Below are positions 29,168-63,538 of a stretch of 64,000 nucleotides of DNA, in pieces. Positions within the stretch are counted from its first letter, which is position 1. The number at the start of each line of letters is the position of its first letter. The notes beneath the pieces were generated by a model. The model did no database searches, was not told the origin of the DNA, and saw only the letters and a list, made by a program, of their open reading frames with translations. Origin of the DNA: Minisyncoccota bacterium (GTDB lineage: Bacteria; Patescibacteriota; Microgenomatia; UBA1400; PJMF01); contig VFLK01000033.1 in NCBI GenBank assembly GCA_009885085.1, positions 7,135-71,134 on the forward strand, in the 5' to 3' direction. A program made the position numbers and the translations under genes.

Positions 29168-29317
29168 TCAGAAATATGACCAATTTTATTGTTGGGCTTA
29201 TCATTGTTTCTCTCCCATCTCCCGACCAAGGATCTGAGGTTTCTTGAAGATTAAATCGACTCTTCTACAGAATTTGTAAAATGTCGATTCACTCTCCAAG
29301 ATATTTGCATTATACAT

Positions 29318-29357: not shown

Positions 29358-29517
29358 CAAAAAATGCCAACCTCAATCTAAGTTTTTATCCAACTTCCTC
29401 ACCAATTCCAGCTTTCCAAAATGAGCTGACAAAATATAAAATCTCCAAGGATACTATCCAATATTCACTTTACACATCTTATTTACTTCCAGTCATAAAA
29501 AGTGTAGTTTTAAATAT

Positions 29518-31893: not shown

Positions 31894-31899
31894 GCTGGA

Positions 31900-32613
31900 G
31901 TGCCAGGACTTGGTGCAATGGGAAACAGCATGGCCATCGCTGACACCAGAGAAACATCTGGACTCAAGGAATCACTTGATCATCCTGCAAAAATGATGGA
32001 TGTATTATTGCCATGGTTGAGAGGAAATGAAAATGTAAAAACTGCTTTTAAAAATTTTCTTGGAGTAAACTTAGACATAGGTAACGAAAAAACAAAAGAA
32101 GAAAAGAATAATCGCAAAAAATTATCACTCTTTCAAAAAATGCTTTCTGAAGATGATTTTGCCTGTTTTAACGACAATAACTCAGAAAAAATTGTTAGAA
32201 GAAATGATTTAAGAATCTGGGGACCAAAAAGAGATGAAGAAAAAAGATTAACAGCTAGTGATTTAAGCGTCAGATATAAACATCATCTAGAGGGAGAACT
32301 TTTATTTGATATGTGGAATCAATTTATAGATGCAGTTGATCAAAATAAAGTAAAAATTGATGATAGAACAAAAGAATCTATCAAAAAATTTAACGGAACG
32401 GGTTTTAAAGAAATGTGGGGAGCAATGATAAAGTTTAGAGCTTTAGACATGCAACATCAAACCGCAAAAGCAAATCTGATCATGAGACTGTGGTTAAATC
32501 CCCATGATCACGATGAGTCTTCGTGGGAAATTTATGTAAGACAATTTAACACTGCAAGAGAATCCTATCGAAACATGGAAAAGGTATTTTCAGTTTTTGG
32601 GAAAGAATACTAA
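31900..32613 (+). CDS. hypothetical protein (237 aa), in the same frame as the upstream ORF and separated from it by one TAA plus two codons; possible C-terminal extension or split gene
   Basis: GTG 31900 (or ATG 31918) start; no convincing spaced SD; frame identity with 29518..31893 computed from coordinates. Confidence 0.5.
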   Translation: MPGLGAMGNSMAIADTRETSGLKESLDHPAKMMDVLLPWLRGNENVKTAFKNFLGVNLDIGNEKTKEEKNNRKKLSLFQKMLSEDDFACFNDNNSEKIVRRNDLRIWGPKRDEEKRLTASDLSVRYKHHLEGELLFDMWNQFIDAVDQNKVKIDDRTKESIKKFNGTGFKEMWGAMIKFRALDMQHQTAKANLIMRLWLNPHDHDESSWEIYVRQFNTARESYRNMEKVFSVFGKEY

Positions 32614-32615
32614 TC

Positions 32616-34739
32616 ATGATTTACGAACCTGATGGCTCATTATCTAACCTAACACTTCCAAGAGATGAAGTGTTAATTGCAATCTATGAAAAACAGAATG
32701 AAGCTTTATTCCTAATTCTTGGAGCTGACAAACCACCAATATTCACTAAAGAATTTGCCGCCAAAGAGTTAGCAATTCAACCACAAGAAACTCCAGGATT
32801 ACTAAAAAGAATTTGGTTTGAAAAGGATGAAAAAAATAAGACGTATAAATTGTGCGGTGTAGGGAAGTGGGGAGGTCAAAATTCAAAACTTGCAGAAATA
32901 TCTATAAATCTTGATATGGAAGAAGCAAATCGACTAATGAGTCTAGCTTCTAATAATAGAATTGAAGAGATAAACTCCTTATCAAATAATTCTGAATTAG
33001 CAAAAACCCCAAAAATTGAAAATTACAGAAAAATGCTAGAAGAAGCTGAAAAAATATTTTTTGCAATGCTAACAGATTATTCTGGAAAAATTGTAGTTGA
33101 TGAAACTGAAAGTGAAAAAAGTAAAAAAAGCTCTGAAGTAAAAAAGGATACGGCGCCTTTAGACACAATTGATGTTCAAATCATGCCAACTGAGAAAACT
33201 GATAAAAAAGATCTACTAAACAAATTAGCTGAAACTATGGAGCTTCGGGTGTTATTTTTAAATAGAAATAACAACGAAATTTCTTACGCTGATATATCCG
33301 AAGTTATAAAATTATTAGTAAATCCAGAAAATGTTGAAAAATATTTTAATAATTTAGGAATTGGCTCAGATGTCATTAGTGAAAAGGAACATTTTGAAAA
33401 TGAACTAAAAAAAATGACGAATGAGTATGCCAGCGGAAAAGTTAAAAACTTGCAAACAATTTTGGAAACAAGAAAACAAAATCAGCTCCAAACAATTTCG
33501 CAGATGATTAATACAATTGTTGAACAAATACCAATGCTTGCTAAAAGTCCAAAAACTTTTGACATTATAAAAAATGCTATGGATCTTGATAATGACTTAG
33601 CCGAGCAACTTGTCAAAGAATATAACGAAACTTCCACAATATCATTTGAAACTGTTTTCGATAATCTCGAAGGTGCAACTGAGTTATTTGAAGCAAAAGT
33701 ATTAGAAATAATTCTAGCAGATTATGAGGATCAAATTAATTCGCTAAAAATTGAATTTAATAAAATAATAGCTTCGCAGACAATCTCAAGGTGTATTGAG
33801 TGGGCCCAACCTCCTTTTTCTACTCCAGTTGATTCAAATATTCAACTCAACGTAGATCCTACTTTATTAGATCAAGCAATTAAATTTTCGTTTAGTCCAG
33901 AAAAGTGGGATATTAATTTAGTTACTTATGCACTAAATAACACTAGACATTCAGATGGCGAAATTGGAAGTAAAATACCAGGCAATAATATTTCAGGACT
34001 ACGAAAAACTAGAGAGAAATTAGATGACTATTTAAAACAGATGGTTGAAAAAAGTAATACGGAAAGTTTTGGTGCTCAATTTAAAGCCTGGATGAAAAAA
34101 TACAGCGATGGAAATATTAACCCAGATTATTACTTATTAAGTTTTACCTCGGTTTTAAAAACACCTTGGAAAAAACTTGAAGAAGAAATCTGGAAAAAAA
34201 CAATGGCCGAGTGGTTAAAATCAAATAAAGAAAAACTAAAAGCCATTGTTACTAACGAACTTAGTAAAAAAGGTGGCGCAATAGATGAAATCAAAAGTCA
34301 TGATAAAGCGATAGCAAAATCAACTGAAATATGGTTTAAATGGCGTCATGAATTGAAAAAAATATTACAAGAAAAATCACTAAATGCTCAAACGGATGTT
34401 GATATTCTAGTTGACTGGTCGCTAAAACAACAATACCCTGACGATAGAATGAAAACAAAAACAAATGAAGTTGCAATTGATTGGGATAAGGACAAAGAAC
34501 TGATAGAAAAACTTAAAGTTGATCATCTAAGAATTTGGAATATAATTTTTCACACCAGAAATATTGCCAAAAGTCTCAACTTAGGTATAGACACAAATGT
34601 TGTTCAATGGCTAAAAAGAATTTCTTTTCAAGCAAAAATGAGCAATCATTATGGATCAGATACTTTTCTCACAAGCGAAGGTGTGGAGTGGAGAGAAAAT
34701 ATTGAGGCCAAAGCCAAAGAAACAACTTCACAAAAATGA
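32616..34739 (+). CDS. large hypothetical protein (707 aa), K/E-rich and probably mostly alpha-helical, no TM or P-loop
   Basis: starts 2 nt after the upstream stop; stop overlaps the next start (ATGA). Confidence 0.6.
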   Translation: MIYEPDGSLSNLTLPRDEVLIAIYEKQNEALFLILGADKPPIFTKEFAAKELAIQPQETPGLLKRIWFEKDEKNKTYKLCGVGKWGGQNSKLAEISINLDMEEANRLMSLASNNRIEEINSLSNNSELAKTPKIENYRKMLEEAEKIFFAMLTDYSGKIVVDETESEKSKKSSEVKKDTAPLDTIDVQIMPTEKTDKKDLLNKLAETMELRVLFLNRNNNEISYADISEVIKLLVNPENVEKYFNNLGIGSDVISEKEHFENELKKMTNEYASGKVKNLQTILETRKQNQLQTISQMINTIVEQIPMLAKSPKTFDIIKNAMDLDNDLAEQLVKEYNETSTISFETVFDNLEGATELFEAKVLEIILADYEDQINSLKIEFNKIIASQTISRCIEWAQPPFSTPVDSNIQLNVDPTLLDQAIKFSFSPEKWDINLVTYALNNTRHSDGEIGSKIPGNNISGLRKTREKLDDYLKQMVEKSNTESFGAQFKAWMKKYSDGNINPDYYLLSFTSVLKTPWKKLEEEIWKKTMAEWLKSNKEKLKAIVTNELSKKGGAIDEIKSHDKAIAKSTEIWFKWRHELKKILQEKSLNAQTDVDILVDWSLKQQYPDDRMKTKTNEVAIDWDKDKELIEKLKVDHLRIWNIIFHTRNIAKSLNLGIDTNVVQWLKRISFQAKMSNHYGSDTFLTSEGVEWRENIEAKAKETTSQK

Positions 34740-37207
34740 TAAGTCGAGAAACAAGCAAACCACAATCCCGCAACGATTTTCTATCGATTCCTGGTCTTGA
34801 TGAAAGAGCACAAGCAACAATTTTTGCCAAAGAAATAGAATTATTGCCTCCAAGAATGCGAAATTATATTGCTATTTTGATGCGAGAAAATAGCAGAGCT
34901 GGCATATTTAAAAAAAGACAATCTGAAGAAAATCTTACAGCACTACTTGAGCCAGCTAGAGAACTGATTAGTTTGTTACATATAACTGAAAATATGCCAG
35001 AGGTTGTGGAAAACCTCCATATCAGGTGGGCAAAAATTATTGAAACTCAACCATATAATGAAAAAACAAGACGAAGAGATATAAGAGAAATATGGTTAGA
35101 TATAATTGAAAAAGGTGTTAAAACCGCGCAAACAACATTTATCTGCAGAGAAATTAGAGACCGAATGATCTCCAGAAGCTATCTCGATAAACCCAGTCAG
35201 GCAATTTCCAAATTTGATACAGAAATACTAAATAAATTAGCTGCCTGGTGCTATGAAGCCCAAGGAGATAAATATAAAGTTGAAAATGGTTACCAGCTAT
35301 TTAAAGAAGATTTGGGAAAAATACTAGAAATTTCACAAGATACTGGCATATCGGCAGAAAATTATTTTAATCACAGAGACAAATCCATAATGCCATGGTT
35401 TTTTATGCTGTTGGTTGGTGATAATTCTGAATTTAGTAAATTCATGTATGAAAAAATAGGCAATAAAGAATCAATGAGACCACACATAAACCTTGGAGTG
35501 ACAGGTATTGATATAGCATTAGGCGAGAATGGACTTGAAGAAAGACCAGACGATCTTTACAAACGTCTTGCTGATCTTTTATATCCTGACGGCTATCCAG
35601 AAGGAATTAAAGGAAAAATTAAAAATTCAGAACAAAGAAGTATTTTTATTGAGAAAGGCAGCGAACTTAAGTGTAAAGTAGCAGACCCAGGTTCAGACTC
35701 ATATGAAAGAGCTTATATCAAAAAGGAAATTGAAATCCTAAAAACTGATTTCCAAGATGATGGCATAGAAATGCACGACAATTTTGGCTATGAAAAACCA
35801 GCTCTTTTTATGTCCTTAGATATTAATTTAATGTCTGATCTCATGGGAATAACTGGTAGCTGGACCAAGTGGCTTGAAGCAATGGCCCATATTAGAGAAC
35901 AAGAAACAACTTGCAACATACCAATTTCTCCAGATGAAGCATTAACTTTGATGAACTGGGATTTAGAGTCTGATTTAAAAAATAAAATCCTCACAAAAGC
36001 AATGCTGATTGCTCATTTCAATAGAGCTGCTGGCTTAGAACAACATCACGGCTATGGAGGAAATAAAAATATTTATAATGATCAATTTTGGGCTAGACTA
36101 GCTTACAATTTATCATTGCCAGAAAATAAAGATGGAGCTCACACTTTGACTCCAGAAATATTAGCTAAAATTTCAGAATCTTCTCAGGACGAAGAAGAAA
36201 TGGCGCAAAAACTTGGATTCTTACTCTCTGGCAGAGTTACTACAATTAATCTCAGTGTGATGGGTGCAAATAGAACTGGAAAAGATGAACAAGCAAGTAC
36301 GATGGAAAGTTCTTCGTATGCAGTCACAGAATCTTGCAGAGCTTATGGCCTTTATGAGCAAGGAAAAGATCCTAAGCCAACAGTTGCTTCTGGACATTCC
36401 ATGGGTGCTCAAATTTTAGAAAGAGCTTTGTTACTTTTGCCTCAAAGTGTAAGAAATTGGGTTGACTTTCTTTCCGTAACTGGAGTCTATACAAGTGAAA
36501 TGAGTGCAATGTCTTTTCTTAAAAAAGGAATGAATAAACTTCACCCATTATTAATTAAACTTGTAACAAATAAGAACATTACTAAACAACAGTTGGGGAA
36601 ATTTATGTCAGGCGCTGGAGAAATCTTACCAATTAAAAAAATAATACTAAAAGGCGCCACCTATTCTCAAGCCAGAACACCAATGGATTTCAAGATTGGA
36701 TTACCAATTGCAGCGGCGCATGAAATAAGTTTGAATTCAGCTCCAGAATATTTATTAGGACAAATGGGAGCAATTGATAACAGCAAAGATAGACATTCAT
36801 TTGATGAACTTGCGTCAACAATATCTACATTTGGTAAAGACATGGTAACAAGAACGGTTGGACGAATTGATTCTGTCCTACATCCTGGAAAATCAATGAG
36901 GGCTCTAAAAAATTCAGACAAAAATATTAGAATAAAAGATTTTGATAAAATGACTATTCCTGAAATGGTTAAGTGGGTAAATGAGACTGAAGTGAATACT
37001 GGTGAACCAATTGAAGTTATCCTGGCTAAAGTTCCACACTACATACAAACGACTGAACTAGGTAGATGGTTGATTAGATTGCAACACATGAAAAAACTAA
37101 AATTACATACTTATGGATATAGAAAAAAAGGTGAAAATTCAGAAGCAACTCAAAATATCAGCAATACAACAAGATCAATTACCGAATTATTTATGGGGAG
37201 AAATTAA
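34736..37207 (+). CDS. large hypothetical protein (823 aa) with a GHSMG (GxSxG nucleophile-elbow-like) motif; candidate serine hydrolase or acyltransferase domain
   Basis: ATGA overlap with the upstream gene; GHSMG encoded at 36392..36406 in frame. Confidence 0.55.
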   Translation: MISRETSKPQSRNDFLSIPGLDERAQATIFAKEIELLPPRMRNYIAILMRENSRAGIFKKRQSEENLTALLEPARELISLLHITENMPEVVENLHIRWAKIIETQPYNEKTRRRDIREIWLDIIEKGVKTAQTTFICREIRDRMISRSYLDKPSQAISKFDTEILNKLAAWCYEAQGDKYKVENGYQLFKEDLGKILEISQDTGISAENYFNHRDKSIMPWFFMLLVGDNSEFSKFMYEKIGNKESMRPHINLGVTGIDIALGENGLEERPDDLYKRLADLLYPDGYPEGIKGKIKNSEQRSIFIEKGSELKCKVADPGSDSYERAYIKKEIEILKTDFQDDGIEMHDNFGYEKPALFMSLDINLMSDLMGITGSWTKWLEAMAHIREQETTCNIPISPDEALTLMNWDLESDLKNKILTKAMLIAHFNRAAGLEQHHGYGGNKNIYNDQFWARLAYNLSLPENKDGAHTLTPEILAKISESSQDEEEMAQKLGFLLSGRVTTINLSVMGANRTGKDEQASTMESSSYAVTESCRAYGLYEQGKDPKPTVASGHSMGAQILERALLLLPQSVRNWVDFLSVTGVYTSEMSAMSFLKKGMNKLHPLLIKLVTNKNITKQQLGKFMSGAGEILPIKKIILKGATYSQARTPMDFKIGLPIAAAHEISLNSAPEYLLGQMGAIDNSKDRHSFDELASTISTFGKDMVTRTVGRIDSVLHPGKSMRALKNSDKNIRIKDFDKMTIPEMVKWVNETEVNTGEPIEVILAKVPHYIQTTELGRWLIRLQHMKKLKLHTYGYRKKGENSEATQNISNTTRSITELFMGRN

Positions 37208-47241: not shown

Positions 47242-48057
47242 ATGGATAAAATAATTTCACTCACAATTGTAATTATTACCCACAGAAATGACGCTAGATT
47301 TATTTCTACTTTAAAATCTGCACAAATTGCTCAAAATATAATAGTCGTGGACAACAAGAGTAATAATGATTGGGAAAAATTAAAAAGAGATTTTAATTTT
47401 GAATTAATTTCACGTGAAAAAGAGATTTCAAATTTTGCAAAAGCTAGGAATGAAGTCTTAAAAGTTGTTCAAACAGAGTGGGTATTTTTTCTTGATAGCG
47501 ATGAAACTCTGGGCGCCTCAACTGCGATCATTCAATCCAATCATGACAAAATTTCAAACATTATCAACCAAAACTTATTTGATGGTGTATCTATTATAAG
47601 AAGAGATATTTTTCTGGGCAAAGAGCTTATGTTTGGTGAAGCTGGAAATACGATCATTATAAGAATGTTTAAAGTAAAAAATGGTAAGTTCAAAAGAAAT
47701 GTTCATGAAATTGCTCAAATAAATGGAAGGTTAGGAGGATCAGAAATAATTGTTTCACACTTTTCACACACTGATATATCTGAATTCATGAGTTCTATTG
47801 CCACATATTCTCAAATGGCTTCTCTAAATGAACTAGTCAGCAAAGAAAATAATAAAGAAGGCAAGGTAGTCAACATACTAAAAATGATCTTTTTTCCACC
47901 GCTCAAATTTCTTCAAAATTATTTTTTAAAACTTGGATTTCTAGACGGATACAGAGGTCTAGTTTATGCAACTATAATGAGTTTACATTCATTATTTGTA
48001 AGAGTTTTTTATTTTGAAAACAATAATGTGGAAATTAATAATGAACCCAAGGCTTAG
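47242..48057 (+). CDS. glycosyltransferase family 2
   Basis: ISLTIVIITHRND...VVDNKSNND and D-x-D-like FLDSDE motif. Confidence 0.6.
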   Translation: MDKIISLTIVIITHRNDARFISTLKSAQIAQNIIVVDNKSNNDWEKLKRDFNFELISREKEISNFAKARNEVLKVVQTEWVFFLDSDETLGASTAIIQSNHDKISNIINQNLFDGVSIIRRDIFLGKELMFGEAGNTIIIRMFKVKNGKFKRNVHEIAQINGRLGGSEIIVSHFSHTDISEFMSSIATYSQMASLNELVSKENNKEGKVVNILKMIFFPPLKFLQNYFLKLGFLDGYRGLVYATIMSLHSLFVRVFYFENNNVEINNEPKA

Positions 48058-49270
48058 AAAAATTCTACTATGGACTTTTGTTGGACTACTAGCTCTGGGC
48101 CAGTTTCAAAGAATTGAGCTGGGAGGAAGTTTCACGGGAATCAACGTGTATTTTCACGATATTTTCATTTTTATCTGGCTGGTTGGTTTCGTATTAACAG
48201 AAAAAATTAATTTAAAATTTAGTAAAACTTCCTTAAAGAAAATTGTGTCTAGTTTTAAAATTGAATCAATTTTTATAGGAATTAGTATTACTGGAATTGC
48301 TCTTAATGTTCTAATCAATAATGATTGGGTTTCTCTATTGTATGTGCTTAGATTTGGCTCCTACATTTTGTTTTTTCTTTCATTAAGATATCTGGTAACA
48401 AAAAAACAGATAAGAGCATCAGACATTAGATTTAAGTTTTTTGGAGCTGGAGCCATTATTCTATTCCTGGGATTTTTGCAACTCATACTGATCAAAGACA
48501 CAAGATTTCTAGCAATACTCGGATGGGATGACCATTTCAATAGATTGATTAGCACCATTTTTGATCCTGGATTTACGGGACTTATTTTTGTAATTACTCT
48601 TATGTTTTTTTACTCACTTTCCAAAATCGATCATAACTTCAAAATTTTTGAAGGCAAACTTATCAATTCAATTATAAGTTTATGGTTTTTAGTAGGAATT
48701 GCATTAACATTTTCGAGAGCCTCATATCTGGCATTATTCGTTGCGTTATTATCACTGGGAGTTTTAAATAGGAAGGTAATTGCTACTTCAATTTTCAAAA
48801 TAGTATTTTTTGTGTTTATTATTTTATTGATACCCAAGCCCGGTGGTGAAGGCGTAGACTTATCTAGAACCTCAACAATTACCGCTAGAAGATCTGCTAT
48901 TGCGTATCAACTAGACTCTGTAACACCAAAAACTTTGCTTATTGGGAATGGCTTATTTTCAAAACAAAATAGATTGGCACAAAATGGACTGGCGCAAAAT
49001 AGATTAGAAACAAATGAGTTTATCCCAAGCCACTCCAGAATGCCTGACAATTTCTTAGTTAATCTTTTACTTTCCACAGGTCAAATTGGCACGGCCATAG
49101 CAATTTTTATTATATTTAAATGGGTAATTAAAATCTCTAAACAAGATCCTGAGCTCGGTTCAGCGATAATTGCTACATTAGTTCACGCGCAATTCAGTAA
49201 TTCAATATTTCAACCGTTTATATTGCTAATGTTATTAGGTGGAATTGCTAGTTTAAAATCTAAAGCTTAA
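48014..49270 (+). CDS. O-antigen ligase/polymerase-like polytopic membrane protein
   Basis: 418 aa, many TM helices with a large loop near the C-terminus, downstream of flippase and GT2. Confidence 0.5.
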   Translation: MKTIMWKLIMNPRLRKILLWTFVGLLALGQFQRIELGGSFTGINVYFHDIFIFIWLVGFVLTEKINLKFSKTSLKKIVSSFKIESIFIGISITGIALNVLINNDWVSLLYVLRFGSYILFFLSLRYLVTKKQIRASDIRFKFFGAGAIILFLGFLQLILIKDTRFLAILGWDDHFNRLISTIFDPGFTGLIFVITLMFFYSLSKIDHNFKIFEGKLINSIISLWFLVGIALTFSRASYLALFVALLSLGVLNRKVIATSIFKIVFFVFIILLIPKPGGEGVDLSRTSTITARRSAIAYQLDSVTPKTLLIGNGLFSKQNRLAQNGLAQNRLETNEFIPSHSRMPDNFLVNLLLSTGQIGTAIAIFIIFKWVIKISKQDPELGSAIIATLVHAQFSNSIFQPFILLMLLGGIASLKSKA

Positions 49271-49297
49271 AGTTATAAACTAGATCAATTTTTGTTG
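49228..49297. repeat. 70-bp direct repeat, copy 1 (3' end of the ligase-like gene plus downstream)
   Basis: about 64/70 identical to 49630..49699. Confidence 0.8.
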
Positions 49298-49361
49298 ACA
49301 AAGGTAATGATAACAGTGTATATTCAAGTCTTATTAAAATTATTTATTTAAGGAACTTAAT

Positions 49362-49631
49362 ATGCAAAAGGAAGTGGAAGAAGAAGACTATGAAACAAAA
49401 AGCGATAATGAAAAAAGAAAAGAAGAAAAAAAGAGCGATTTTTTTATTAAATTTGATGAACGGAATCCTAAAGAAAAACAAAGGGTTTCACAGCAAATAG
49501 GGTTTAAATTTAGTGGAAAAGAAAAAAGAAGAAAAGGGATAAGGTTAGATCAGAATATAGAAACACAGCAACTGAATGACGATGGCGACTCAATAGTTCA
49601 TGAAACCGATGATCATGATATCAGTTATTAA
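49362..49631 (+). CDS. small highly charged (K/E/D-rich) hypothetical protein lying between the 70-bp direct repeats
   Basis: 89-aa ORF; stop codon abuts repeat copy 2. Confidence 0.35.
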   Translation: MQKEVEEEDYETKSDNEKRKEEKKSDFFIKFDERNPKEKQRVSQQIGFKFSGKEKRRKGIRLDQNIETQQLNDDGDSIVHETDDHDISY

Positions 49632-49699
49632 TGTTATCAGGTGAAATTGCTAGCTAAAAATCTAAAGCTTAAAGCTATAAACTAGATCAATTTTTGTAG
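49630..49699. repeat. 70-bp direct repeat, copy 2 (supplies the last about 12 codons of the minus-strand gene 49662..50456)
   Basis: aligned by eye with copy 1. Confidence 0.8.
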
Positions 49700-50456
49700 A
49701 GTTTTTAGCTTTGTCCTCAGCATGCACTTCAATTTTATTTTCCCCCTCAACTAGAAGAATGCTGTGCTCAAATAGACCCTCGTCATTTGGAAATACAACT
49801 CGATTATTTATATAAATTTTAGCACCGACATCTGTTTTTCCCTTGAGATTTATTGATTGTTTTGCCCTGGACTCAAATGACGTGCCGTCAGCAGGTTCTA
49901 AGATTTCTAAACTTGGTGCTTGAGTGTCCAATAAAGTATTGTAATCTCTAGTTGCGGCCGACTCATTTTCAGCCTTATCAACGCTGTACGCTGCAATTAT
50001 ATTTTCACCTTCATCTAAAATTATTCCAATTTCGAATGATCCATCTTCATTGATTTTTATCGAGTCATCTTTTCTTCCATTGAGAACCAAAATTAAATCG
50101 CTTTCTGGTTCTCCAAAACCTGTAACCTTTATATTGGCGCTACTTGTTGCAGCGGGTGGAGCTGAAAGAATTGGAACCTGAGGAGCTATCATATCTGCTT
50201 GTTGAAAAGGAGTAGAGGAATCAAAAAAATCTCCCGTCAATTTAAAAAAACCTGGAATAATAATAAAAACAAAGGCAAGTAACACCACGATTGCAATGAC
50301 AACTATCGTAATGGTTTGATGTACCACCTTCTTTTTTTCACTATTCATCCTACGAGAATAAACTCCAGATGGAGTATTCTTATAGCTTGAGGTATTTAAA
50401 ATTCTTGATATAGGGTTAATTCTGCGTCTGATTTTTGACATGCCTAAAGTATACAT
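49662..50456 (-). CDS. hypothetical membrane-anchored protein with two repeated beta-rich (Ig-like) segments
   Basis: N-terminal TM helix (ITIVVIAIVVLLAFVFIIIPGFF), internal repeat (...GENIIAAYSVDKAENES / ...GENKIEVHAEDKAKNST). Confidence 0.45.
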   Translation of the reverse strand: MYTLGMSKIRRRINPISRILNTSSYKNTPSGVYSRRMNSEKKKVVHQTITIVVIAIVVLLAFVFIIIPGFFKLTGDFFDSSTPFQQADMIAPQVPILSAPPAATSSANIKVTGFGEPESDLILVLNGRKDDSIKINEDGSFEIGIILDEGENIIAAYSVDKAENESAATRDYNTLLDTQAPSLEILEPADGTSFESRAKQSINLKGKTDVGAKIYINNRVVFPNDEGLFEHSILLVEGENKIEVHAEDKAKNSTKIDLVYSFKL

Positions 50457-50578: not shown

Positions 50579-50654
50579 TGGAGCCGAAGGTGGGAGTCGA
50601 ACCCACGACCTATGGTTTACGATACCAGTGCTCTACCAACTGAGCTACTTCGGC
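50579..50654 (-). tRNA. tRNA-Thr (anticodon CGT), CCA encoded
   Basis: manual cloverleaf on the reverse complement: acceptor gccgaag/cttcggc, D-arm gctc/gagc, anticodon loop atCGTaa, T-arm gtggg-ttcgact-cccac, discriminator t, CCA. Confidence 0.85.
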
Positions 50655-50668: not shown

Positions 50669-51394
50669 CTATAGCCTAGATTTTATCACTGGAAGCTTGA
50701 GTTCTGTTAACGGAAATATTAAATTTGGATCAGTTCCAATTACTTGTTTATTAAGCTCATATATTTCTGACCAGATCATAGGATCTGAATAATTTTCAAA
50801 AGCTATTTTCCAAACAGAATCTCCTGGCTTAACAATATAAGATTCTGTATCTGCCCAATCACGATCGTCGCTCTTGATTCCGTCAGAATTCAAAATCTTT
50901 TTGTTTATAATATTTAAATTGGCATTTATTAAAATTACTTGTCCAATTTGAAGATATTGACCATGCTTAAAATTATTTAGTTTTTCTATTTCAAGATATC
51001 TACTTCCACTTCCAAAAAATTTTTCTGCAATCTTCCAAGAAGAGTCGCCTAGCTGAGCTACATAACTTGAAGCATCCTCAGTTTGCATTTCATCGACTTT
51101 TTCAGCGACCTTATCATAAACTTTATCTTCCTGAATCGTGTTTGCTTTATTAATTTTTTCGATTGATGATTCAAAAGAATCAAAACCTACTTGAGTGCTG
51201 GCAGCTTCGTTTGTAATTTTTCCTTGTGATCTTTGCTTTATTAAAGAATTTAAAAGCAAATTAAACGCAATCATAATCACAATTAGAAAACCAAGTAAAA
51301 ATATTATTAGGGTAGATTTATCCTTAATAAATTTGATAAGATTTTTGAGGTTCAATTCTGTCATATTAATGCAAATATAACAGAGTAAGTACAA
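50669..51394 (-). CDS. LysM-domain membrane protein (two LysM-like repeats)
   Basis: GDSVWKIA...YELN and GDSSWKIA...LEIEKLN LysM-like segments; likely true start at 51364 (MTELN...) before a TM helix. Confidence 0.55.
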   Translation of the reverse strand: MYLLCYICINMTELNLKNLIKFIKDKSTLIIFLLGFLIVIMIAFNLLLNSLIKQRSQGKITNEAASTQVGFDSFESSIEKINKANTIQEDKVYDKVAEKVDEMQTEDASSYVAQLGDSSWKIAEKFFGSGSRYLEIEKLNNFKHGQYLQIGQVILINANLNIINKKILNSDGIKSDDRDWADTESYIVKPGDSVWKIAFENYSDPMIWSEIYELNKQVIGTDPNLIFPLTELKLPVIKSRL

Positions 51395-54140: not shown

Positions 54141-54395
54141 TTGGTTTATAATATAGGAATGAAATATCCCATACCAAAGACTTTATATAAATACTTTTGG
54201 GGCGACAATTTAGATGAACTTTGCTGGCAAGACCATCAAAAATACATTACTCAGACACTGTTAGAAAAAGGAGATAGAGAAGCAACTAGTTGGCTTTTGA
54301 GCATGTCTGATAAATCCCAATTATTAAAGCAACTTCCAGAATTAAAGCTAAGTATTAAATCAAAAAACTTCTGGCAGATATATTTATCAGCATGA
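54141..54395 (+). CDS. small hypothetical protein, 4-nt overlap with the downstream nucleotidyltransferase (candidate antitoxin partner)
   Basis: 84-aa ORF; operon arrangement only. Confidence 0.3.
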   Translation: MVYNIGMKYPIPKTLYKYFWGDNLDELCWQDHQKYITQTLLEKGDREATSWLLSMSDKSQLLKQLPELKLSIKSKNFWQIYLSA

Positions 54396-55021
54396 AAATA
54401 TACGCCCAAACTTTACCCATTAGAACCAAATGCATAGTTGAAATTTTTCAGAAAGAAAAACCCGATTTTTTAAATGACTTTTATTTGTCTGGCGGAACAG
54501 CATTAGCTTTACAACTAGGTCACAGAGAATCAGAAGATTTAGATTTTTTTAGTAAAGATTTCTTTAATCCTAGTAGATTACAACTTAAGCTTGAAAAATA
54601 TGGAAAACTAAATGACTTGGAGTTATCAGAAGGGACTTTAAATACTTATTTAAACGGAGCAAAACTTCAATTTTTAGAATATCCCTATGCATTGGTTAAA
54701 AATCATTTTGATTGGCAAGGAATAAAACTAAGCTCAATAGAAGATATTGCCTGTACCAAACTGCATACTATCAGCATGAGAGGAAGTAAAAAAGATTTTG
54801 TTGACTTGTTCTTTATTTTACAAAGTTTTTCATTAGATGATCTTTTTAAAATGTTGAAAAGAAAATATGTAATCTCTGATTTTAGTCAAACTCATATTTT
54901 GAAATCACTAGTTTACTTTGAAGACGCAAATTCTCAACCAATGCCTAGAATGCACAAACTAGTAAGTTGGGATGAAATTAAAGAGACAATCATCAAAAAA
55001 GTTAAAGACTTGGTGCTTTAG
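54392..55021 (+). CDS. AbiEii-like nucleotidyltransferase (type IV TA toxin family)
   Basis: LSGGTALALQLGHRESEDLDFF resembles the GGTAL...R.SEDLDF N-terminal motif of AbiEii/DUF1814 proteins. Confidence 0.5.
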   Translation: MKIYAQTLPIRTKCIVEIFQKEKPDFLNDFYLSGGTALALQLGHRESEDLDFFSKDFFNPSRLQLKLEKYGKLNDLELSEGTLNTYLNGAKLQFLEYPYALVKNHFDWQGIKLSSIEDIACTKLHTISMRGSKKDFVDLFFILQSFSLDDLFKMLKRKYVISDFSQTHILKSLVYFEDANSQPMPRMHKLVSWDEIKETIIKKVKDLVL

Positions 55022-55272: not shown

Positions 55273-55274
55273 AG

Positions 55275-55347
55275 CGAGCTCGATCGGACTCGAACCGACG
55301 ATCTTCTCCGTGACAGGGAGACATGTTAACCACTACACCACGAGCCC
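55275..55347 (-). tRNA. tRNA-Asp (anticodon GTC), no encoded CCA
   Basis: manual cloverleaf on the reverse complement: acceptor gggctcg/cgagctc (one G-U), anticodon stem tctcc/ggaga, loop ctGTCac, T-arm gtcgg-ttcgagt-ccgat. Confidence 0.8.
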
Positions 55348-58680: not shown

Positions 58681-60090
58681 ATGAAAACCGATAACACAAA
58701 TAAAAATAAATATTCTTTGGTTTGTGGTCTAGAAATTCACGCCGAGCTTAAGACGAACTCTAAGTTGTTTTGTGGCTGTAAAAATGACCCATTTGGAGCT
58801 GAGAAACCAAATATCTACACTTGTCCAACTTGTTTAGGTATGCCCGGAGGTTCGCCAGTAGCTAACAAAAAAGCCATTGAGTGGACAATTAAAGTTGGTT
58901 TGGCACTTGGCTGTAAAATCAATTTATTCTCTAAATTTGATCGAAAGAATTATTTTTACCCAGATCTGCCAAAATCTTACCAAATTAGCCAATATGATCT
59001 GCCTTTTTGTTATGATGGTGTTTTAGAAACCTCTTTTGGTCCAGTGGGAATTACCAGAATTCATCTAGAAGAAGATACTGGGAAGCTATTACACAAAACT
59101 ATAGAGAAGGTGAATTCCGCAGGAAGAGAAGCTGGCCTGGGCCATGGAAAACAAGTAAGTCTAATAGATTTCAATAGAAGTAGCGTTCCTTTGATGGAAA
59201 TAGTGACTGAGCCAGATATACATAGCGCTGAACAGGCCAAAGAATACGCCAAAGAAATTCGAAAAATTCTTAAATATTTAGACGTCGCTGACTGCGACAT
59301 GGATCAAGGTGGTATGAGACTTGAGGCCAACATTTCTTTGGCTCCAATCGATAAAAATAATCCAAGTTCAAAACTTAGCAAACTCCCAAATTATAAAGTT
59401 GAAGTGAAAAACATCAACTCTTTTAGATTTATGGAACAAGCTATTGATTTTGAAATGGGCAGACAGGCTGAGATTCTTAATGATGGTAAAGTTCCTACTC
59501 AGGAAACTAGAGGTTGGAACTCTGTGAAATCCATTACTTTTTCGCAGCGTACTAAAGAAGATTCTGAAGACTACAGATACTTCCCAGATCCAGATCTACC
59601 ACCAATTAGATATTCACGTGAAAATATAGAGGCTATGAGAGCTGAGTTACCTGAGCTTCCAGCTCAGAAATCGAAGCGTTGGGCAACAGAATACGGTGTA
59701 GAAGAAAGATATTCCAAACAACTGATTTCACATGAAATATTTGCTAATTGGCTTGAAGAATCGTTCAAAATTTGTGTAAAAGAAAAAATTGAGCCAAATA
59801 AATTTGCTGGAGCATTAATCAATAAGAATATTAGAGTTTCACATGTAATGTCGTCAATTATCGCTGTTGAAGAATTCAAAAAATTGTCTCAAACTGATGA
59901 AGTAGCTGACGATGAAATTATCTCAGTTATCACAGATGTTATATCTCAAAATAATGATGCTGTTATTAAATTCAAATCAGGAGACACTAAAGTAATTGGA
60001 TTTTTCATTGGTCAAACTATGAGAAAACTTGGTAAGAAAGTTGATAACAAAAAACTTGGAGAGCTGCTACTAAATGAACTTAAAAAATAA
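58681..60090 (+). CDS. gatB: Asp/Glu-tRNA amidotransferase subunit B
   Basis: YSLVCGLEIHAELKTNSKLFCGC N-terminus. Confidence 0.9.
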   Translation: MKTDNTNKNKYSLVCGLEIHAELKTNSKLFCGCKNDPFGAEKPNIYTCPTCLGMPGGSPVANKKAIEWTIKVGLALGCKINLFSKFDRKNYFYPDLPKSYQISQYDLPFCYDGVLETSFGPVGITRIHLEEDTGKLLHKTIEKVNSAGREAGLGHGKQVSLIDFNRSSVPLMEIVTEPDIHSAEQAKEYAKEIRKILKYLDVADCDMDQGGMRLEANISLAPIDKNNPSSKLSKLPNYKVEVKNINSFRFMEQAIDFEMGRQAEILNDGKVPTQETRGWNSVKSITFSQRTKEDSEDYRYFPDPDLPPIRYSRENIEAMRAELPELPAQKSKRWATEYGVEERYSKQLISHEIFANWLEESFKICVKEKIEPNKFAGALINKNIRVSHVMSSIIAVEEFKKLSQTDEVADDEIISVITDVISQNNDAVIKFKSGDTKVIGFFIGQTMRKLGKKVDNKKLGELLLNELKK

Positions 60091-63000
60091 ATTTGTCCAT
60101 CTACATGTTCACACAGAATATTCTTTGTTAGATGGTTTATGCAAGTTACCTGACCTCATTAATCAAGTTCAAGAAAATGGTCAACATGCTATAGCTGTTA
60201 CTGATCATGGTGCGATGTATGGTGCTTTGCATTTTTATAACGCTTGTAGAAAAGCTGAAATTAAACCAATTGTTGGTGTCGAAATCTATCTAGCCAAGAA
60301 CTCAATGAAGGACAAGCAGTCTAAAATGGGCTCAGATCAATTTCATTTGACTCTTTTGGCCAAAAGTTTTAAAGGCTACCAGAACATTAATAGATTGGTA
60401 ACGATCGCCAACTTTGAAGGTTTCTCATATAAGCCACGTATCGACGAAGAAACTCTTTTTAAATATTCTGAAGATATTATTTGTTTGAGTGGCTGTATGA
60501 GTAGTATGTTTAACAGACTGCTTCGTGACGGTAAACTTGAAGAAGCTGAAGCAAAATTCAAACTCTATAAGGAAAAGTTTCCAGGCAGATTCTATGTCGA
60601 AATTCAAAAACATCCTCAAATCCATGAGCTCGACAGTCTAACAAAATTGCAAGTAGAAATGGCTCGAAAACTAGATTTGCCATTAGTGGCTACCAACGAT
60701 GTTCACTATGTGCGCCAAGAAGATTCGATTGCTCAAGACGCGCTACTTTGCGTTCAAACGAGAAAACTAATCGACGATACCAAACGCATGACCATGATGG
60801 ATTCACCGGACTTCTATTTAAGATCTACCGAAGAAATGATTGAACTATTCAAAGATTATCCTGACGCAATTGAGAATACTGTAAAAATTGCTGATGAGTG
60901 CAACTTAGAAATTCCAACAGGTCAATTAATTTTTCCTGAATATCCGATTCCAAAAGGAGAAACTTTGGCTTCGGTCCTCAAAGATATGGCTTATAAAGGG
61001 GCAAAGAAAAAGTTTGGCAAAGTCACTCCCGAAATTGAAAAAAGACTTGATTACGAATTAAAAATTATTAATGACAAAGGCTATGCCGCTTATTTTTTGA
61101 TTACCCAAGATTTTGTTAACTGGTCAAAAGAAAATGGCATCACTGTAGGTCCAGGAAGAGGTTCTGCCGCTGGCTCTCTTGTTTCATATTGTATTGGAAT
61201 TACGACTATTGATCCTCTGTTTCACGGTCTAGCATTTGAGCGTTTTCTAAATCCTCAACGTCCAACTCCTCCTGATATTGATCTAGATTTTGCTGACACT
61301 AAACGCGATCAAGTTATTAAATATGTTTCTGATAAATATGGTAACGACCACGTGGCTCACGTGATTACTTTTGGAAAAATGGAAGCTAGAGTTTCTATCA
61401 GAGATATTGGCAGAGTTCTTGGTATGCCATATGAAGATCCTGATAAAATTGCTAAATTAATTCCCAACGATCCTGGCAAAAAAACCTCATTAAAAAAGGC
61501 GATCGAAACTGTTCCTGAACTAGCTGAATACTACAAACAACCTAAGTTCAAAAAATTGATTGATTTAGCTATGAAAGTTGAAGGCTCAATTCGTCATTCA
61601 TCCGTTCATGCAGCCGCAATTATCATTACTGATAAACCACTGCCGGATTATGTTGCGATCCAAAAAGATTCAAAGTCAGGAAAAACGATCACCCAATACG
61701 ATATGTATGCTCTTGACTGTAATATTGATGATGATGCAATTGGCTTACTTAAATTTGACTTTTTGGGACTAAGAAACTTGAGTATTATTAATAGCGCGCT
61801 TCAATTGATTGAAGCAAATAAAAAGATAAAACTAGACATCGATAAATTACCTTTGGACGATAAAAAAACTTACAAACTTTTATCATCTGGCGACACATTT
61901 GGAGTCTTTCAACTTGAATCTGCCGGCATGAGACGTGTAGCTAGAACTTTGAAACCAAATAAATTTTCTGATATTACAGCTATGGTGGCTTTGTATCGTC
62001 CTGGTCCAATGGATCTTATTCCAACTTTTATTGAAGGCAAACACAATCCTAAATCCATTAAATATCCTGATGAATCTTTGAAACCAATACTTGAAGAAAC
62101 ATATGGAGTCATGGTTTACCAAGAGCAGATTTTATTAATGGCAAATTTAATGGCAGGCTATACCTTAGGTGAAGCTGACATTTTACGTCGTGCTATCGGT
62201 AAAAAAAAGAAAAAACTCCTAGACGAAAATAAACGAAGATTTATCGACCAATCTGTTGTCAAAGGTTATAAAATTGAAGTTGCAGAAAAAGTCTGGGGCT
62301 TTATTGAAGCTTTTGCTAACTACGGTTTTAACAAAGCTCATGCGGCAAGTTACGCCATGATTGCTTATCAAACTGCATATCTTAAAGCAAACTATCCAGT
62401 TGAGTACATGACTGCATTAATGAGTGTTGAATCTGCTTCTCATTCGATTAATCGTGATATTAAAATTTCAGTTGGAGTTGAATCACTCAAGAAAATGGGC
62501 ATCAACATTTATCCTCCAGAAATCAATAAATCTACAGATGACTTCATAATTGAAAAAGACAAAAAATCATTAGAGGGTTTGGCTATTAGATTCGGCTTAA
62601 ACGCCATTAAACATGTTGGTTCCAAAGCAATTGAAAACATCATGGAAATTAAAAAAGCAGCTGGAGAATTCACTTCGTTAACTCAATTTATAAATAAATC
62701 AGATAGTAGAAAAGTCAATAAAACCACATTAGAGGTGCTGATTAAAGCAGGTGTGATGGATAGGTTTGGCAACCGAGCTAGCATGCTTGAAGGATTAGAA
62801 AAAATTCGTGCCACCGCTTCTCAATTGCAATCAGATGTTGATGGCCAAGACTCACTATTTGGCGATGTCTCTTCTGCCGATGAAACACTTGAGGACACTT
62901 TTCCAGAACTTCCAGAATATCCTCAGCAAGAACTACTTTCATTTGAAAAAGAACTCTTAGGACTATACCTAACAGACCATCCATTGGCCCATCAACTCAA

Positions 63001-63538
63001 GGCAGTTTCCAAAGATGCCACGAAAAAAATTGAAGATCTTGACGCCACTATTCATAATGAGAAAGTATTCTTATTTGGCGGAATCCTAACCAATGTCAGA
63101 AATATTTCTACTAAAAAATCAGGCAAACCTATGGCTTTTGCAAAACTTGAAGATGAAACTGGATCTATTGATGTTGTAATTTTCCCTAAAACATTTGAAC
63201 AGTACTCAAATGTCATTCATGACGATGCAGTGCTCTTGGTGAAAGCAAAAGTTGATGAAAGAGACGGCGAACTCCAGCTTTTGGTAGAAAAAATAAGCGT
63301 TCCTTCAGAAGAGGACATGTTCCATGAGGGCTCATCACTTCACAAAGAAATTTTTGTACCTAGAAAAACTTCCAAAGAAACCTTACAAAAACTTGGCGAA
63401 CTTTTAAAAGCTCATAAAGGTTCTCAAACTGTAATTGTGTTAATTCCTAATGGTGCTAAACCTCAAAAAATGTTGCTTCCATATGGCGTTGCGTGGGATG
63501 AGGAACTTGAAAAAAAGATCGCAGCTTTACTAAATTAG
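60074..63538 (+). CDS. dnaE: DNA polymerase III alpha subunit
   Basis: PHP domain FVHLHVHTEYSLLDG, 1154 aa. Confidence 0.9.
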   Translation: MNLKNKFVHLHVHTEYSLLDGLCKLPDLINQVQENGQHAIAVTDHGAMYGALHFYNACRKAEIKPIVGVEIYLAKNSMKDKQSKMGSDQFHLTLLAKSFKGYQNINRLVTIANFEGFSYKPRIDEETLFKYSEDIICLSGCMSSMFNRLLRDGKLEEAEAKFKLYKEKFPGRFYVEIQKHPQIHELDSLTKLQVEMARKLDLPLVATNDVHYVRQEDSIAQDALLCVQTRKLIDDTKRMTMMDSPDFYLRSTEEMIELFKDYPDAIENTVKIADECNLEIPTGQLIFPEYPIPKGETLASVLKDMAYKGAKKKFGKVTPEIEKRLDYELKIINDKGYAAYFLITQDFVNWSKENGITVGPGRGSAAGSLVSYCIGITTIDPLFHGLAFERFLNPQRPTPPDIDLDFADTKRDQVIKYVSDKYGNDHVAHVITFGKMEARVSIRDIGRVLGMPYEDPDKIAKLIPNDPGKKTSLKKAIETVPELAEYYKQPKFKKLIDLAMKVEGSIRHSSVHAAAIIITDKPLPDYVAIQKDSKSGKTITQYDMYALDCNIDDDAIGLLKFDFLGLRNLSIINSALQLIEANKKIKLDIDKLPLDDKKTYKLLSSGDTFGVFQLESAGMRRVARTLKPNKFSDITAMVALYRPGPMDLIPTFIEGKHNPKSIKYPDESLKPILEETYGVMVYQEQILLMANLMAGYTLGEADILRRAIGKKKKKLLDENKRRFIDQSVVKGYKIEVAEKVWGFIEAFANYGFNKAHAASYAMIAYQTAYLKANYPVEYMTALMSVESASHSINRDIKISVGVESLKKMGINIYPPEINKSTDDFIIEKDKKSLEGLAIRFGLNAIKHVGSKAIENIMEIKKAAGEFTSLTQFINKSDSRKVNKTTLEVLIKAGVMDRFGNRASMLEGLEKIRATASQLQSDVDGQDSLFGDVSSADETLEDTFPELPEYPQQELLSFEKELLGLYLTDHPLAHQLKAVSKDATKKIEDLDATIHNEKVFLFGGILTNVRNISTKKSGKPMAFAKLEDETGSIDVVIFPKTFEQYSNVIHDDAVLLVKAKVDERDGELQLLVEKISVPSEEDMFHEGSSLHKEIFVPRKTSKETLQKLGELLKAHKGSQTVIVLIPNGAKPQKMLLPYGVAWDEELEKKIAALLN

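What the first reader, a model, noticed from the sequence alone, without database searches (positions are those of the whole stretch)
49228..49699. 70-bp direct repeats bracketing a 330-bp insert with a small acidic ORF between two convergent envelope genes
49228..49297 and 49630..49699 are about 91% identical direct repeats. Copy 1 contains the stop codon and 3' flank of the O-antigen-ligase-like gene. Copy 2 supplies the C-terminal about 12 codons and stop of the convergent minus-strand Ig-like protein gene. Between them is a K/E/D-rich 89-aa ORF (49362..49631). The architecture looks like an insertion by site-specific or homologous recombination using a roughly 70-bp att-like sequence, or like a small mobile cassette. 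It rewrote the 3' end of at least one flanking gene.
Basis: seen in the sequence. Interest (0 to 1): 0.55.

Follow-up and report, generated by a model that had tools for sequence, protein, structure and literature searches.

The report
Orphan gene inserted between overlapping genes
In one small-genome (Pacebacteria-like) bacterium, a 330-bp piece of DNA carrying a small orphan gene sits exactly where two convergent cell-envelope genes normally overlap, and 72 bp of that gene-end sequence is duplicated so both genes stay intact; the insertion is real and lineage-specific, but nothing shows it is an active mobile element.

Summary
49227-49298 and 49629-49700 are 72-nt direct repeats, 66/72 identical. 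They are the only long, high-identity direct repeat in the 64-kb window. Seven related lineages have the empty site: the O-antigen-ligase-like and Ig-like genes abut directly (overlap 4-24 nt, once a 33-nt gap), with one copy of the 72-bp sequence and no gene between them. The window therefore carries a lineage-specific 402-bp gain (330 bp new, 72 bp duplicated). The duplication preserved both gene ends and did not rewrite them. At all six differences, copy 1 has the majority outgroup state and copy 2 the minority state. The 89-aa ORF is coding-like. It has an AAGGA ribosome-binding site and one of only two near-consensus promoter matches in the window, whose -35 spans the repeat/insert junction. 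It has no significant homologue in billions of proteins. No recombinase, terminal inverted repeats, further copies, or phage or plasmid matches were found. The insert is not a decayed copy of its flanks. Best reading (about 0.4): the product of a single-crossover (Campbell-type) integration of DNA carrying its own copy of the gene ends, now a tiny att-flanked remnant. A one-off illegitimate duplicative insertion is nearly as likely. Interest is modest.

The parts
48041..49270 (+). O-antigen-ligase/Wzy_C-like membrane protein gene. The ATG at 48041 matches the start used by relatives; the open frame reaches back to a TTG at 48014. Its last 14 codons and stop lie in repeat copy 1.
   Evidence: Wzy_C, E 4.2e-4, below Pfam's cut-off; homologues carry PF04932; start position by homology.
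49227..49298 (.). Direct repeat copy 1 (72 nt). It is the working 3' end of the ligase gene plus a displaced, unused copy of the Ig-like gene's last 12 codons (it would read ..STKIDLVYNFKL*). It has the majority outgroup state at all six positions where the copies differ.
49248..49283 (.). Imperfect 36-nt palindrome centred on AAGCTT inside copy 1. The outer 8-nt arms CTAGTTTA/TAAACTAG are perfect. It is weakened in copy 2 by the changes at repeat positions 25 and 27. Role unknown.
   Evidence: pair I1, 18-nt arms, 78% complementary; comparison with copy 2 read directly.
49295..49324 (+). Promoter-like site TTGACA-18 nt-TATATT (11/12 matches). The -35 hexamer is made of TTGA from the end of copy 1 plus CA from the insert. 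It ends 38 nt before the ORF's ATG.
   Evidence: only 2 sites with 11/12 or better in the whole window, both strands. Consensus match only; expression not shown.
49299..49628 (.). Inserted DNA, 330 bp, 29% G+C and 47% A. It is absent from every related locus and has no similarity elsewhere in the window.
49350..49354 (+). Shine-Dalgarno-like AAGGA, 7 nt before the ATG.
   Evidence: Read directly from the sequence.
49362..49631 (+). 89-aa orphan ORF (24 D+E, 19 K+R, calculated pI 5.1). Its stop codon is the first 3 nt of copy 2. It looks coding in this frame only. No significant homologue and no confident fold.
49629..49700 (.). Direct repeat copy 2 (72 nt). It is the working 3' end of the Ig-like gene plus a dead copy of the ligase end (G->E change and a premature TAA). 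It carries all six minority-state differences.
49662..50456 (-). Membrane-anchored Ig-like protein gene (Glucodextran_B and Big_6 domains). Its last 12 codons and stop lie in copy 2.

Best explanation
This is a lineage-specific 402-bp gain at the point where two convergent envelope genes overlap. Shown: the ancestral state is ligase gene and Ig-like gene tail to tail, sharing their last few bases, with one copy of the 72-bp sequence. In this genome 330 bp of unrelated DNA lies between two copies of that sequence. Copy 1 finishes the ligase gene and copy 2 finishes the Ig-like gene, so both proteins keep their normal C-termini and the two genes no longer overlap. Inferred mechanism: a single reciprocal crossover (Campbell-type integration) between the chromosome and a circular DNA that carried its own, slightly diverged copy of the 72-bp gene-end block. 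This is the arrangement known for tyrosine-integrase elements whose attP carries a 'replacement' 3' end for the target gene. Under this reading copy 2 is the incoming block and copy 1 the resident one. What remains today is a minimal att-flanked remnant, comparable to a CIME, with no recombination genes. Each repeat would be protected from deletion because it supplies a gene end. The surviving cargo is an 89-aa acidic, probably disordered orphan protein. It is presumably transcribed from a near-consensus promoter whose -35 box was completed at the junction. Its function is unknown.
For: Seven relatives have the empty site. L002/L008/L009, L003/L010 and L012 overlap by 24 nt, L011 by 6, L014 by 4 and L015 by 11. 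A JGI contig has a 33-nt gap (gene coordinates only; no DNA was returned for it). Gene order on both sides is the same. The homology boundaries are sharp: sequence left of copy 1 and right of copy 2 continues the relatives' sequence. The repeats are host gene-end sequence. At all six differences copy 1 has the state of 5-6 of the 6 outgroups. Copy 2 is closest to copy 1 (6 mismatches) and lies 11-17 from the outgroups, against 7-12 for copy 1. A 6:0 split has a two-sided binomial p of about 0.03 (my calculation), and it includes two changes in the part of copy 2 that is in use. That is expected if copy 2 arrived already diverged. Published basis: identity blocks between attL and attR can extend to about 250 bp when attP carries a replacement for the target gene's end (PMC10111431). 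Decayed elements can retain attL and attR without recombination genes (PMC5704250). Single crossover of circles carrying short homology leaves 109-950-bp duplications flanking the insert (PMC3240628). The gene looks real. An ORF of 89 aa or more arose in 31 of 5000 shuffles of the insert. The coding score is +0.27 per codon in frame against -0.47 to -1.41 in the other five frames. The promoter match is one of two in 64 kb.
Against: No integrase or other recombinase was found among the 46 ORFs scanned by Pfam. The presumed cell-division cluster at 13.8-28.5 kb, five small ORFs, the 1154-aa ORF at 60074-63538 and the rest of the genome were not scanned. A 330-bp insert is far smaller than any described att-flanked remnant and leaves almost no room for integrase arm sites. 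No attP-like copy of the block and no relative of the insert or ORF was found in viral contigs, phages or plasmids. As a substrate for RecA the two blocks share at most 22 uninterrupted identical bases (read). The 6:0 asymmetry is weak evidence. It could also arise if copy 1's unused part is now constrained as the promoter's upstream region. Only one genome carries the insertion, so nothing about mobility or selection can be measured.
Confidence: 0.4

Rival explanations
1. A one-off illegitimate duplicative insertion. Either a double-strand break with about 72-nt staggered ends was filled in and joined to a stray DNA fragment, or a replication template switch left the site, copied 330 nt elsewhere and re-entered 72 nt upstream. 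The repeats would then be a very long target-site duplication that was identical at first and has since drifted apart.
For: It is a single event in a single lineage, with no recombinase, no terminal inverted repeats, no other copies and no homologues anywhere. The same lineage shows other local duplication-type changes nearby: a 15-nt tandem expansion in the ligase gene and a second LysM domain in the neighbouring gene. Small suggestive junction features exist. One is a 10/11 inverted match between the copy 1/insert junction and sequence 5 nt beyond copy 2 (pair I7). The other is a set of 11-mers similar to the start of the repeat near both insert ends.
Against: To my knowledge no bacterial pathway is known to give about 70-bp target duplications; transposases and casposases give 2-15 bp. 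If both copies started identical, all six changes falling on copy 2 is unexpected. There are none in the 28 unused bases of copy 1 against 4 in the 33 unused bases of copy 2. From that rate about 3.4 changes would be expected in copy 1, Poisson p of about 0.03 (my calculation). The junction features were found post hoc and are near chance level in AT-rich DNA.
Confidence: 0.3
2. A local tandem duplication spanning the gene junction, followed by decay of the internal pseudogene fragments. From these an open reading frame arose de novo.
For: Tandem duplication is the simplest way to obtain two copies of a junction. The last 60 nt of the insert show a marginal resemblance to the 60 nt left of copy 1 (TCAATAGTTCA against TCAATATTTCA, in the same reading frame; 4.6% of null windows score as high).
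Against: The 330-bp insert scores no better against the 330 nt on either side than against random chunks of the window (28% and 52% of null chunks score as high). The adjacent 72 bp are still 92% identical, including their unused halves. Such unequal decay is not credible.
Confidence: 0.07
3. An active miniature mobile cassette (MITE-like, integron-cassette-like or trans-mobilised) that brings its own 72-bp recombination site.
For: The layout is repeat, small ORF, repeat. The repeat contains an imperfect palindrome.
Against: The repeat is the host's own gene-end sequence, present once in seven relatives. There are no other copies in the window. There are no terminal inverted repeats. I saw no attC-type core sites by eye. 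The ORF's cluster has a single member among about 15 billion sequences, and no significant homologue appeared among 1.84 billion cluster representatives.
Confidence: 0.05
4. An assembly artefact: a spurious duplication or a chimeric join in a metagenome-assembled contig.
For: The window comes from a metagenome-derived contig (P0001: NCBI, 80,635-bp contig). The left junction has no independent confirmation. No reads could be examined.
Against: Artefactual duplications are normally exact. These copies differ at 6 of 72 positions and share no identical run longer than 22 nt, too short to confuse common k-mer sizes. Collapse at a shared repeat would give one copy, not two. A separate Logan assembly reproduces copy 2 plus 16 nt of insert exactly. 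The insert carries a coding-like ORF with promoter and ribosome-binding site, and its third-position G+C (0.24) is close to that of the window's genes (0.26).
Confidence: 0.04
5. The insert is ancestral and was lost repeatedly in relatives by recombination between the repeats.
For: Direct repeats do promote precise deletion.
Against: Seven lineages lack it, and the three with codon-aligned genes are about equally distant from one another (4-fold-site differences 0.44-0.50). That would require many independent losses. The two copies are closer to each other than copy 2 is to any outgroup, so the duplication arose within this lineage.
Confidence: 0.02

Closest known systems
[quoted passage not shown]
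   Same: Direct repeats flank the inserted DNA and consist of the target gene's own 3' end, so the gene stays functional. The length (72 bp) is within the reported range of up to about 250 bp. A displaced, unused copy of a gene end is left behind. The in-use and displaced copies differ slightly.
   Different: No integrase was found and the insert is only 330 bp. The block restores the ends of two convergent, overlapping protein genes at once. No free or second copy of the block or the cargo is known. Membership is not established.
[quoted passage not shown]
   Same: Repeat-flanked DNA with no recombination genes, explained as decay after site-specific integration.
   Different: To my recollection described CIMEs are kilobases long and sit at sites used by known related ICEs or IMEs. 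Here no related functional element is known, and mobilisation cannot be tested.
Campbell-type single-crossover integration of a circular DNA through a short homologous segment (for example the 109-950-bp lacZ duplications in PMC3240628)
   Same: The topology is identical: homology block, inserted DNA, homology block.
   Different: That case needs RecA-type recombination on continuous homology. Here the blocks share at most 22 uninterrupted identical bases today, and the origin of a circle carrying this block is unexplained.
Target-site duplications made by transposases, casposases or Cas1-Cas2 (the last duplicates the CRISPR repeat when a spacer is inserted)
   Same: Target sequence is duplicated on both sides of newly inserted DNA.
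   Different: Those duplications are 2-15 bp, or one CRISPR repeat. There are no terminal inverted repeats, no transposase, no cas genes, no array and only a single copy.
Integron gene cassettes
   Same: A small single ORF is bounded by similar repeats of about 60-130 bp that contain imperfect palindromes.
   Different: The repeats here are native gene ends found once in relatives, not attC sites brought by the cassette. The ORF has its own promoter. No integron integrase or attI was found in the parts of the window that were scanned.

Membership tests
Site-specifically integrated element (att-flanked island or prophage remnant, CIME) | Direct repeats (attL/attR identity block) flank DNA that is absent from an uninterrupted attB in relatives | tested here: met
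   The 72-nt repeats are 92% identical. The uninterrupted single-copy site was found in seven related lineages.
Site-specifically integrated element (att-flanked island or prophage remnant, CIME) | The identity block restores the 3' end of the interrupted gene | tested here: met
   Copy 1 completes the ligase gene and copy 2 completes the Ig-like gene. Both C-termini match those of relatives.
Site-specifically integrated element (att-flanked island or prophage remnant, CIME) | An integrase gene within or next to the element, or for a CIME a known related element that uses the same att site | tested here: not met
   No recombinase domain was found in the 46 window ORFs scanned. No viral contig carries the block; the one partial hit, L013, is an unrelated phage tail protein. 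The rest of the genome could not be searched.
Site-specifically integrated element (att-flanked island or prophage remnant, CIME) | Excision to a circle with attP and restoration of attB | not testable with these tools
   This needs reads or PCR from the source sample.
Transposable element or MITE | Terminal inverted repeats and a short (2-15 bp) target-site duplication | tested here: not met
   The inverted-repeat scan of 49200-49720 finds no terminal pair at the insert ends. The duplication is 72 bp.
Transposable element or MITE | Multiple copies in the genome | tested here: not met
   There is no second copy of the insert or the repeat in the 64-kb window or in related loci. The ORF's cluster has one member among about 15 billion sequences. 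The remainder of the genome was covered only at protein level.
Integron gene cassette | An attC site brought by the cassette, and an integron integrase or attI nearby | tested here: not met
   The repeat is resident gene-end sequence present in all relatives. No integrase was found in the scanned ORFs.
Tandem duplication | The DNA between the repeats is homologous to the sequence flanking them | tested here: not met
   Local alignment of the insert against the 330 nt on each side scores no better than against random window chunks (28% and 52% of null chunks score as high). Only a marginal signal (4.6%) appears in the last 60 nt.
Protein-coding gene (for the 89-aa ORF) | Open frame longer than chance, frame-specific codon usage, and start signals | tested here: met
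   31 of 5000 shuffles reach 89 aa. The coding score is positive only in this frame, at about the 5th percentile of real-gene windows. There is a promoter-like site and an AAGGA.
Protein-coding gene (for the 89-aa ORF) | Conservation in other genomes, or evidence of expression | tested here: not met
   Only the ORF itself was found among 5.8 billion clusters. The weak hits among 1.84 billion representatives are inflated by internal repeats in the hit proteins, at least for the two examined, P0007 and P0010. There are no Pfam or NCBIfam hits, and the best PHROG hit has E 0.078. Expression is not testable here.

The most novel reading that the evidence does not exclude
The 402-bp unit (the 330-bp insert plus one 72-bp block) is a functional, ultra-small integrative cassette of candidate-phyla-radiation bacteria. 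It would be mobilised in trans by an integrase encoded elsewhere. It would target the shared tail of two convergent genes and carry replacement ends for them, delivering a promoter-equipped orphan gene. That would be a minimal form of site-specific gene delivery not yet described.
Probability: 0.05. Interest if true: 0.7.

Novelty: new member of a known kind. Interest (0 to 1): 0.3.

Why it matters
This is a clean before-and-after example of how a very compact genome (about 94% of the window lies in ORFs) can gain a gene at a place where two genes physically overlap. Duplicating the shared gene ends separates the two genes and makes room for a new, promoter-equipped orphan gene without damaging either neighbour. 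It also shows that a 72-bp gene-end block can behave as an att-like target in a Patescibacteria genome. The evidence comes from one genome and the mechanism is unresolved, so its value is as a documented case and a lead, not a discovery of a new system.

Tried and rejected
1. I looked for exact copies of the window's proteins in other assemblies. The ORF and the ligase (both start choices) are not on record. The Ig-like protein occurs only on a 989-bp Logan contig.

2. I searched for homologues of the 89-aa ORF. The word-indexed search found only the ORF itself. The exhaustive HMMER search gave four weak hits. I inspected two of them. P0007 is a 16-fold internal repeat whose single unit gives no BLASTP alignment. 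P0010 is a 2-fold repeat with 35% identity over 49 aa, and its library-wide score is summed over both repeats. P0008 and P0009 (2508 and 2194 aa, multiple matched stretches) were not inspected. I treat none of them as homology.

3. Searches of phages, plasmids and viral contigs with the insert DNA, the ORF and four versions of the repeat gave nothing. The single hit, L013, is a phage tail protein that shares the peptide LLGGIAS by chance.

4. Rfam found nothing in 49000-50000, and the repeat-to-repeat RNA fold is no more stable than shuffles (z = +1.0).

5. AlphaFold2 on the ORF gave a mean pLDDT of 59.8 and pTM of 0.30, so no fold search was attempted.

6. The tandem-duplication origin of the insert was rejected by alignment against null chunks.

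7. I first read the short ligase end as a window-specific 8-nt deletion shared by both copies, which would have dated the duplication. L015 and L014 have the same short form, so I withdrew that argument.

8. The motif ATGWTAWYAGK has 4 of its 5 window hits inside the feature. It was derived post hoc, and two of the hits are the repeat copies themselves, so I do not count it as evidence.

Full report
**1.
The repeat finder reports a single 72-nt direct repeat, 49227-49298 and 49629-49700, 66/72 identical and 402 nt apart. A 40-nt core occurs only at those two places, with none expected in 100 shuffles. Across the whole 64-kb window it is the only direct repeat of 30 nt or more above 77% identity.

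Copy 1 contains the last 14 codons, the TAA stop (49268-49270) and 28 nt of 3' flank of a plus-strand membrane protein. That protein has a weak Wzy_C (O-antigen ligase) match, and its homologues carry PF04932. Copy 2 contains the last 12 codons and the stop of a minus-strand Ig-like protein with Glucodextran_B and Big_6 domains. Read on the other strand, copy 1 would also encode the Ig-like tail (..STKIDLVYNFKL*). Copy 2 also holds a dead version of the ligase tail (GGT GAA ATT GCT AGC TAA). Both readings come directly.

Between the copies lie 330 bp (49299-49628) with an 89-aa ORF (49362-49631). The ORF's stop codon is the first three bases of copy 2.

**2. It is an insertion, and the empty site exists.**
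The window resembles a Pacebacteria/Patescibacteria genome: 35% G+C, and about 94% of it lies in ORFs. Its closest relatives are MAGs named Candidatus Pacebacteria and Patescibacteria.

In seven independent relatives the ligase and Ig-like genes are direct tail-to-tail neighbours, with one copy of the 72-bp sequence and nothing between them:

| Locus | Source | Arrangement |
|---|---|---|
| L002/L008/L009 | Ca. Pacebacteria CG_4_10_14_3_um_filter_34_15 | 24-nt overlap |
| L003/L010 | Patescibacteria MAG MM_PC_MetaG.mb.79 | 24-nt overlap |
| L012 | GCA_900089805.1 | 24-nt overlap |
| L011 | Logan SRR22387796 | 6-nt overlap |
| L014 | Logan SRR22387796 | 4-nt overlap |
| L015 | ENA ERZ23498652 | 11-nt overlap |
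| JGI 3300072015 | gene coordinates only, no DNA returned | 33-nt gap |

The surrounding gene order is conserved: signal peptidase, flippase, GT2, ligase, Ig-like, LysM.

In the DNA alignment, the sequence left of copy 1 and right of copy 2 continues the relatives' sequence. Homology stops sharply at 49298/49299 and at 49628/49629.

A pre-insertion site with copy 1's sequence would have an 11-nt overlap, the same as in L015. The window's ligase tail (..SLKSKA*) is of the same type as in L015 (..SLKTKA*) and L014 (..SLKQKV*). So the event did not rewrite either gene end. It duplicated them, and each gene kept one copy.

**3. Age and polarity.**
The three lineages with codon-aligned genes (the window, L002 and L003) are about equally distant from one another. 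Differences at 4-fold degenerate sites are 0.44-0.50. No closer relative of the window lineage exists in the collections. The best ligase homologue is 74% identical, and the window-type Ig-like protein is known only from the source contig and one Logan contig.

At all six positions where the copies differ, copy 1 has the state of 5-6 of the 6 outgroups and copy 2 has the minority state. Copy 2 is nearest to copy 1 (6 mismatches, against 11-17 to the outgroups). Copy 1 is 7-12 mismatches from the outgroups. The duplication therefore arose within this lineage, and every later or imported change is on copy 2. Four are in its dead ligase part, including a Leu-to-stop change. Two are in its working Ig-like part: one synonymous, and one N-to-S that L014 also has.

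A 6:0 split has a two-sided binomial p of about 0.03 (my calculation). The 28 unused bases of copy 1 show no change, against 4 changes in the 33 unused bases of copy 2.

**4. The insert and its ORF.**
The 330 bp have no similarity to the rest of the window or to related loci beyond short A-rich words. They have no Rfam match, no unusual RNA fold, and no hit in phages, plasmids or viral contigs.

They are not a decayed tandem copy of the neighbouring 330 nt: 28% and 52% of null chunks score as high. Only the last 60 nt show a marginal resemblance to the ligase sequence left of copy 1 (4.6% of null windows).

The ORF looks like a gene in several respects:
- An ORF this long arises in 31 of 5000 dinucleotide shuffles of the insert.
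- Its codon score is +0.27 per codon in frame, against -0.47 to -1.41 in the other five frames. That is about the 5th percentile of real-gene windows.
- Its third-position G+C (0.24) is close to that of the window's genes (0.26).
- An AAGGA lies 7 nt before the ATG.
- TTGACA-18-TATATT at 49295-49324 is one of only two matches of 11/12 or better in the entire window. Its -35 box is completed by the junction: TTGA from the repeat and CA from the insert.

The ORF is nevertheless an orphan. Only the ORF itself appears among 5.8 billion protein clusters. The exhaustive search found only repeat-inflated weak hits, at least for the two I inspected. No family matches it. The predicted structure is of low confidence (pLDDT 59.8).

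**5. What it is not.**
- **Transposon or MITE:** there are no terminal inverted repeats, the duplication is 72 bp, and there is a single copy.
- **Integron cassette:** the repeats are resident gene ends, not imported attC sites.
- **Assembly artefact (unlikely):** the copies differ at six positions and share no identical run over 22 nt. A repeat collapse would give one copy, not two. A second assembler reproduces the right junction exactly.
- **Ancestral structure lost in relatives:** that would need many independent losses, and it contradicts copy 2 being derived from a copy 1-like sequence.

No recombinase domain occurs in the 46 window ORFs scanned. The presumed cell-division cluster, a few small ORFs and the 1154-aa ORF at 60074-63538 were not scanned.

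**6. Most likely mechanism.**
The layout of block, insert, block is the product of one reciprocal crossover between the chromosome and a circle carrying a copy of the block.

Two published situations give exactly this. Tyrosine-integrase elements can have an attP that carries a replacement for the target gene's 3' end, with identity blocks up to about 250 bp (PMC10111431). Circles carrying short homology can integrate by single crossover, leaving 109-950-bp duplications (PMC3240628). Decay of such elements to att-flanked remnants without recombination genes is also known (CIMEs; PMC5704250).

This model explains why all differences sit on one copy, including its working half: that copy would have arrived already diverged. 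It also explains why both repeats survive, since each supplies a gene end. I put it at about 0.4.

Its weak points are the missing integrase, the extreme smallness of the insert and the absence of any related element.

A one-off illegitimate duplicative insertion (staggered break with fill-in, or a template switch) is nearly as likely, at about 0.3. It needs no missing partner. However, it invokes a 72-bp target duplication with, to my knowledge, no known bacterial precedent, and it does not predict the 6:0 asymmetry.

The remaining alternatives together are below 0.2.

**7. Verdict.**
The 'att-like recombination' reading is plausible but unproven. The 'mobile cassette' and 'rewrote the gene end' readings are not supported.

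This is a tidy example of gene gain at an overlapping gene pair in a very compact genome. It falls within known kinds of events. Interest is about 0.3.

Noticed in passing
window 48964-49005: A 15-nt tandem repeat (2.8 copies of ACAAAATAGATTGGC) lies inside the ligase gene. It encodes QNRLA-QNGLA-QNRLE and adds 10 residues to a loop that is short in relatives L002 and L003. This is a second lineage-specific duplication, 230 nt upstream of the repeat.
   Followed up: partly
window 50669-51394 (-): The LysM protein is 241 aa with two LysM domains. Its counterparts in relatives are 130-145 aa, and the Pfam record lists LysM once for them. A diverged internal repeat (50719-50747 and 50914-50942, 76% identical, 195 nt apart) suggests an older domain duplication.
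   Followed up: partly
window 50579-50654 (-): A tRNA-Thr (CGT) gene lies between the Ig-like and LysM genes, about 880 bp from copy 2. The Logan contig L001 ends inside it. It is not part of the repeat structure.
   Followed up: partly
window 54141-55021 and 55274-55347: A DUF6922 and AbiEii pair (a type IV toxin-antitoxin / abortive-infection pair) lies just upstream of tRNA-Asp. It may be a small accessory islet. I did not check whether relatives have it.
   Followed up: no
window 28727-37207: Five consecutive plus-strand ORFs (146, 791, 237, 707 and 823 aa) with no Pfam match start directly after tRNA-Gly (28652-28725).
   Followed up: no
L002, L003, L011, L012, L014, L015 and JGI 3300072015 (ligase/Ig-like junction): The length of the 3' overlap between the two convergent genes varies among lineages: 24, 24, 6, 24, 4 and 11 nt, and once a 33-nt gap. 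Indels in the ligase tail cause this, while the Ig-like tail stays nearly invariant.
   Followed up: yes
window 49229-49641: Four of the five window matches to ATGWTAWYAGK fall inside the feature, all on the plus strand. Two are at the starts of the repeat copies. The other two lie 8 nt and 3 nt inside the insert's left and right ends (10/11 identical to each other). The pattern was derived post hoc, so its meaning is unclear.
   Followed up: partly
window 49297-49307 and 49705-49715: GACAAAGGTAA at the copy 1/insert junction is a 10/11 inverted match of TTAGCTTTGTC, which lies 5 nt beyond copy 2. It could be a trace of template switching or simply chance in AT-rich DNA (pair I7).
   Followed up: no
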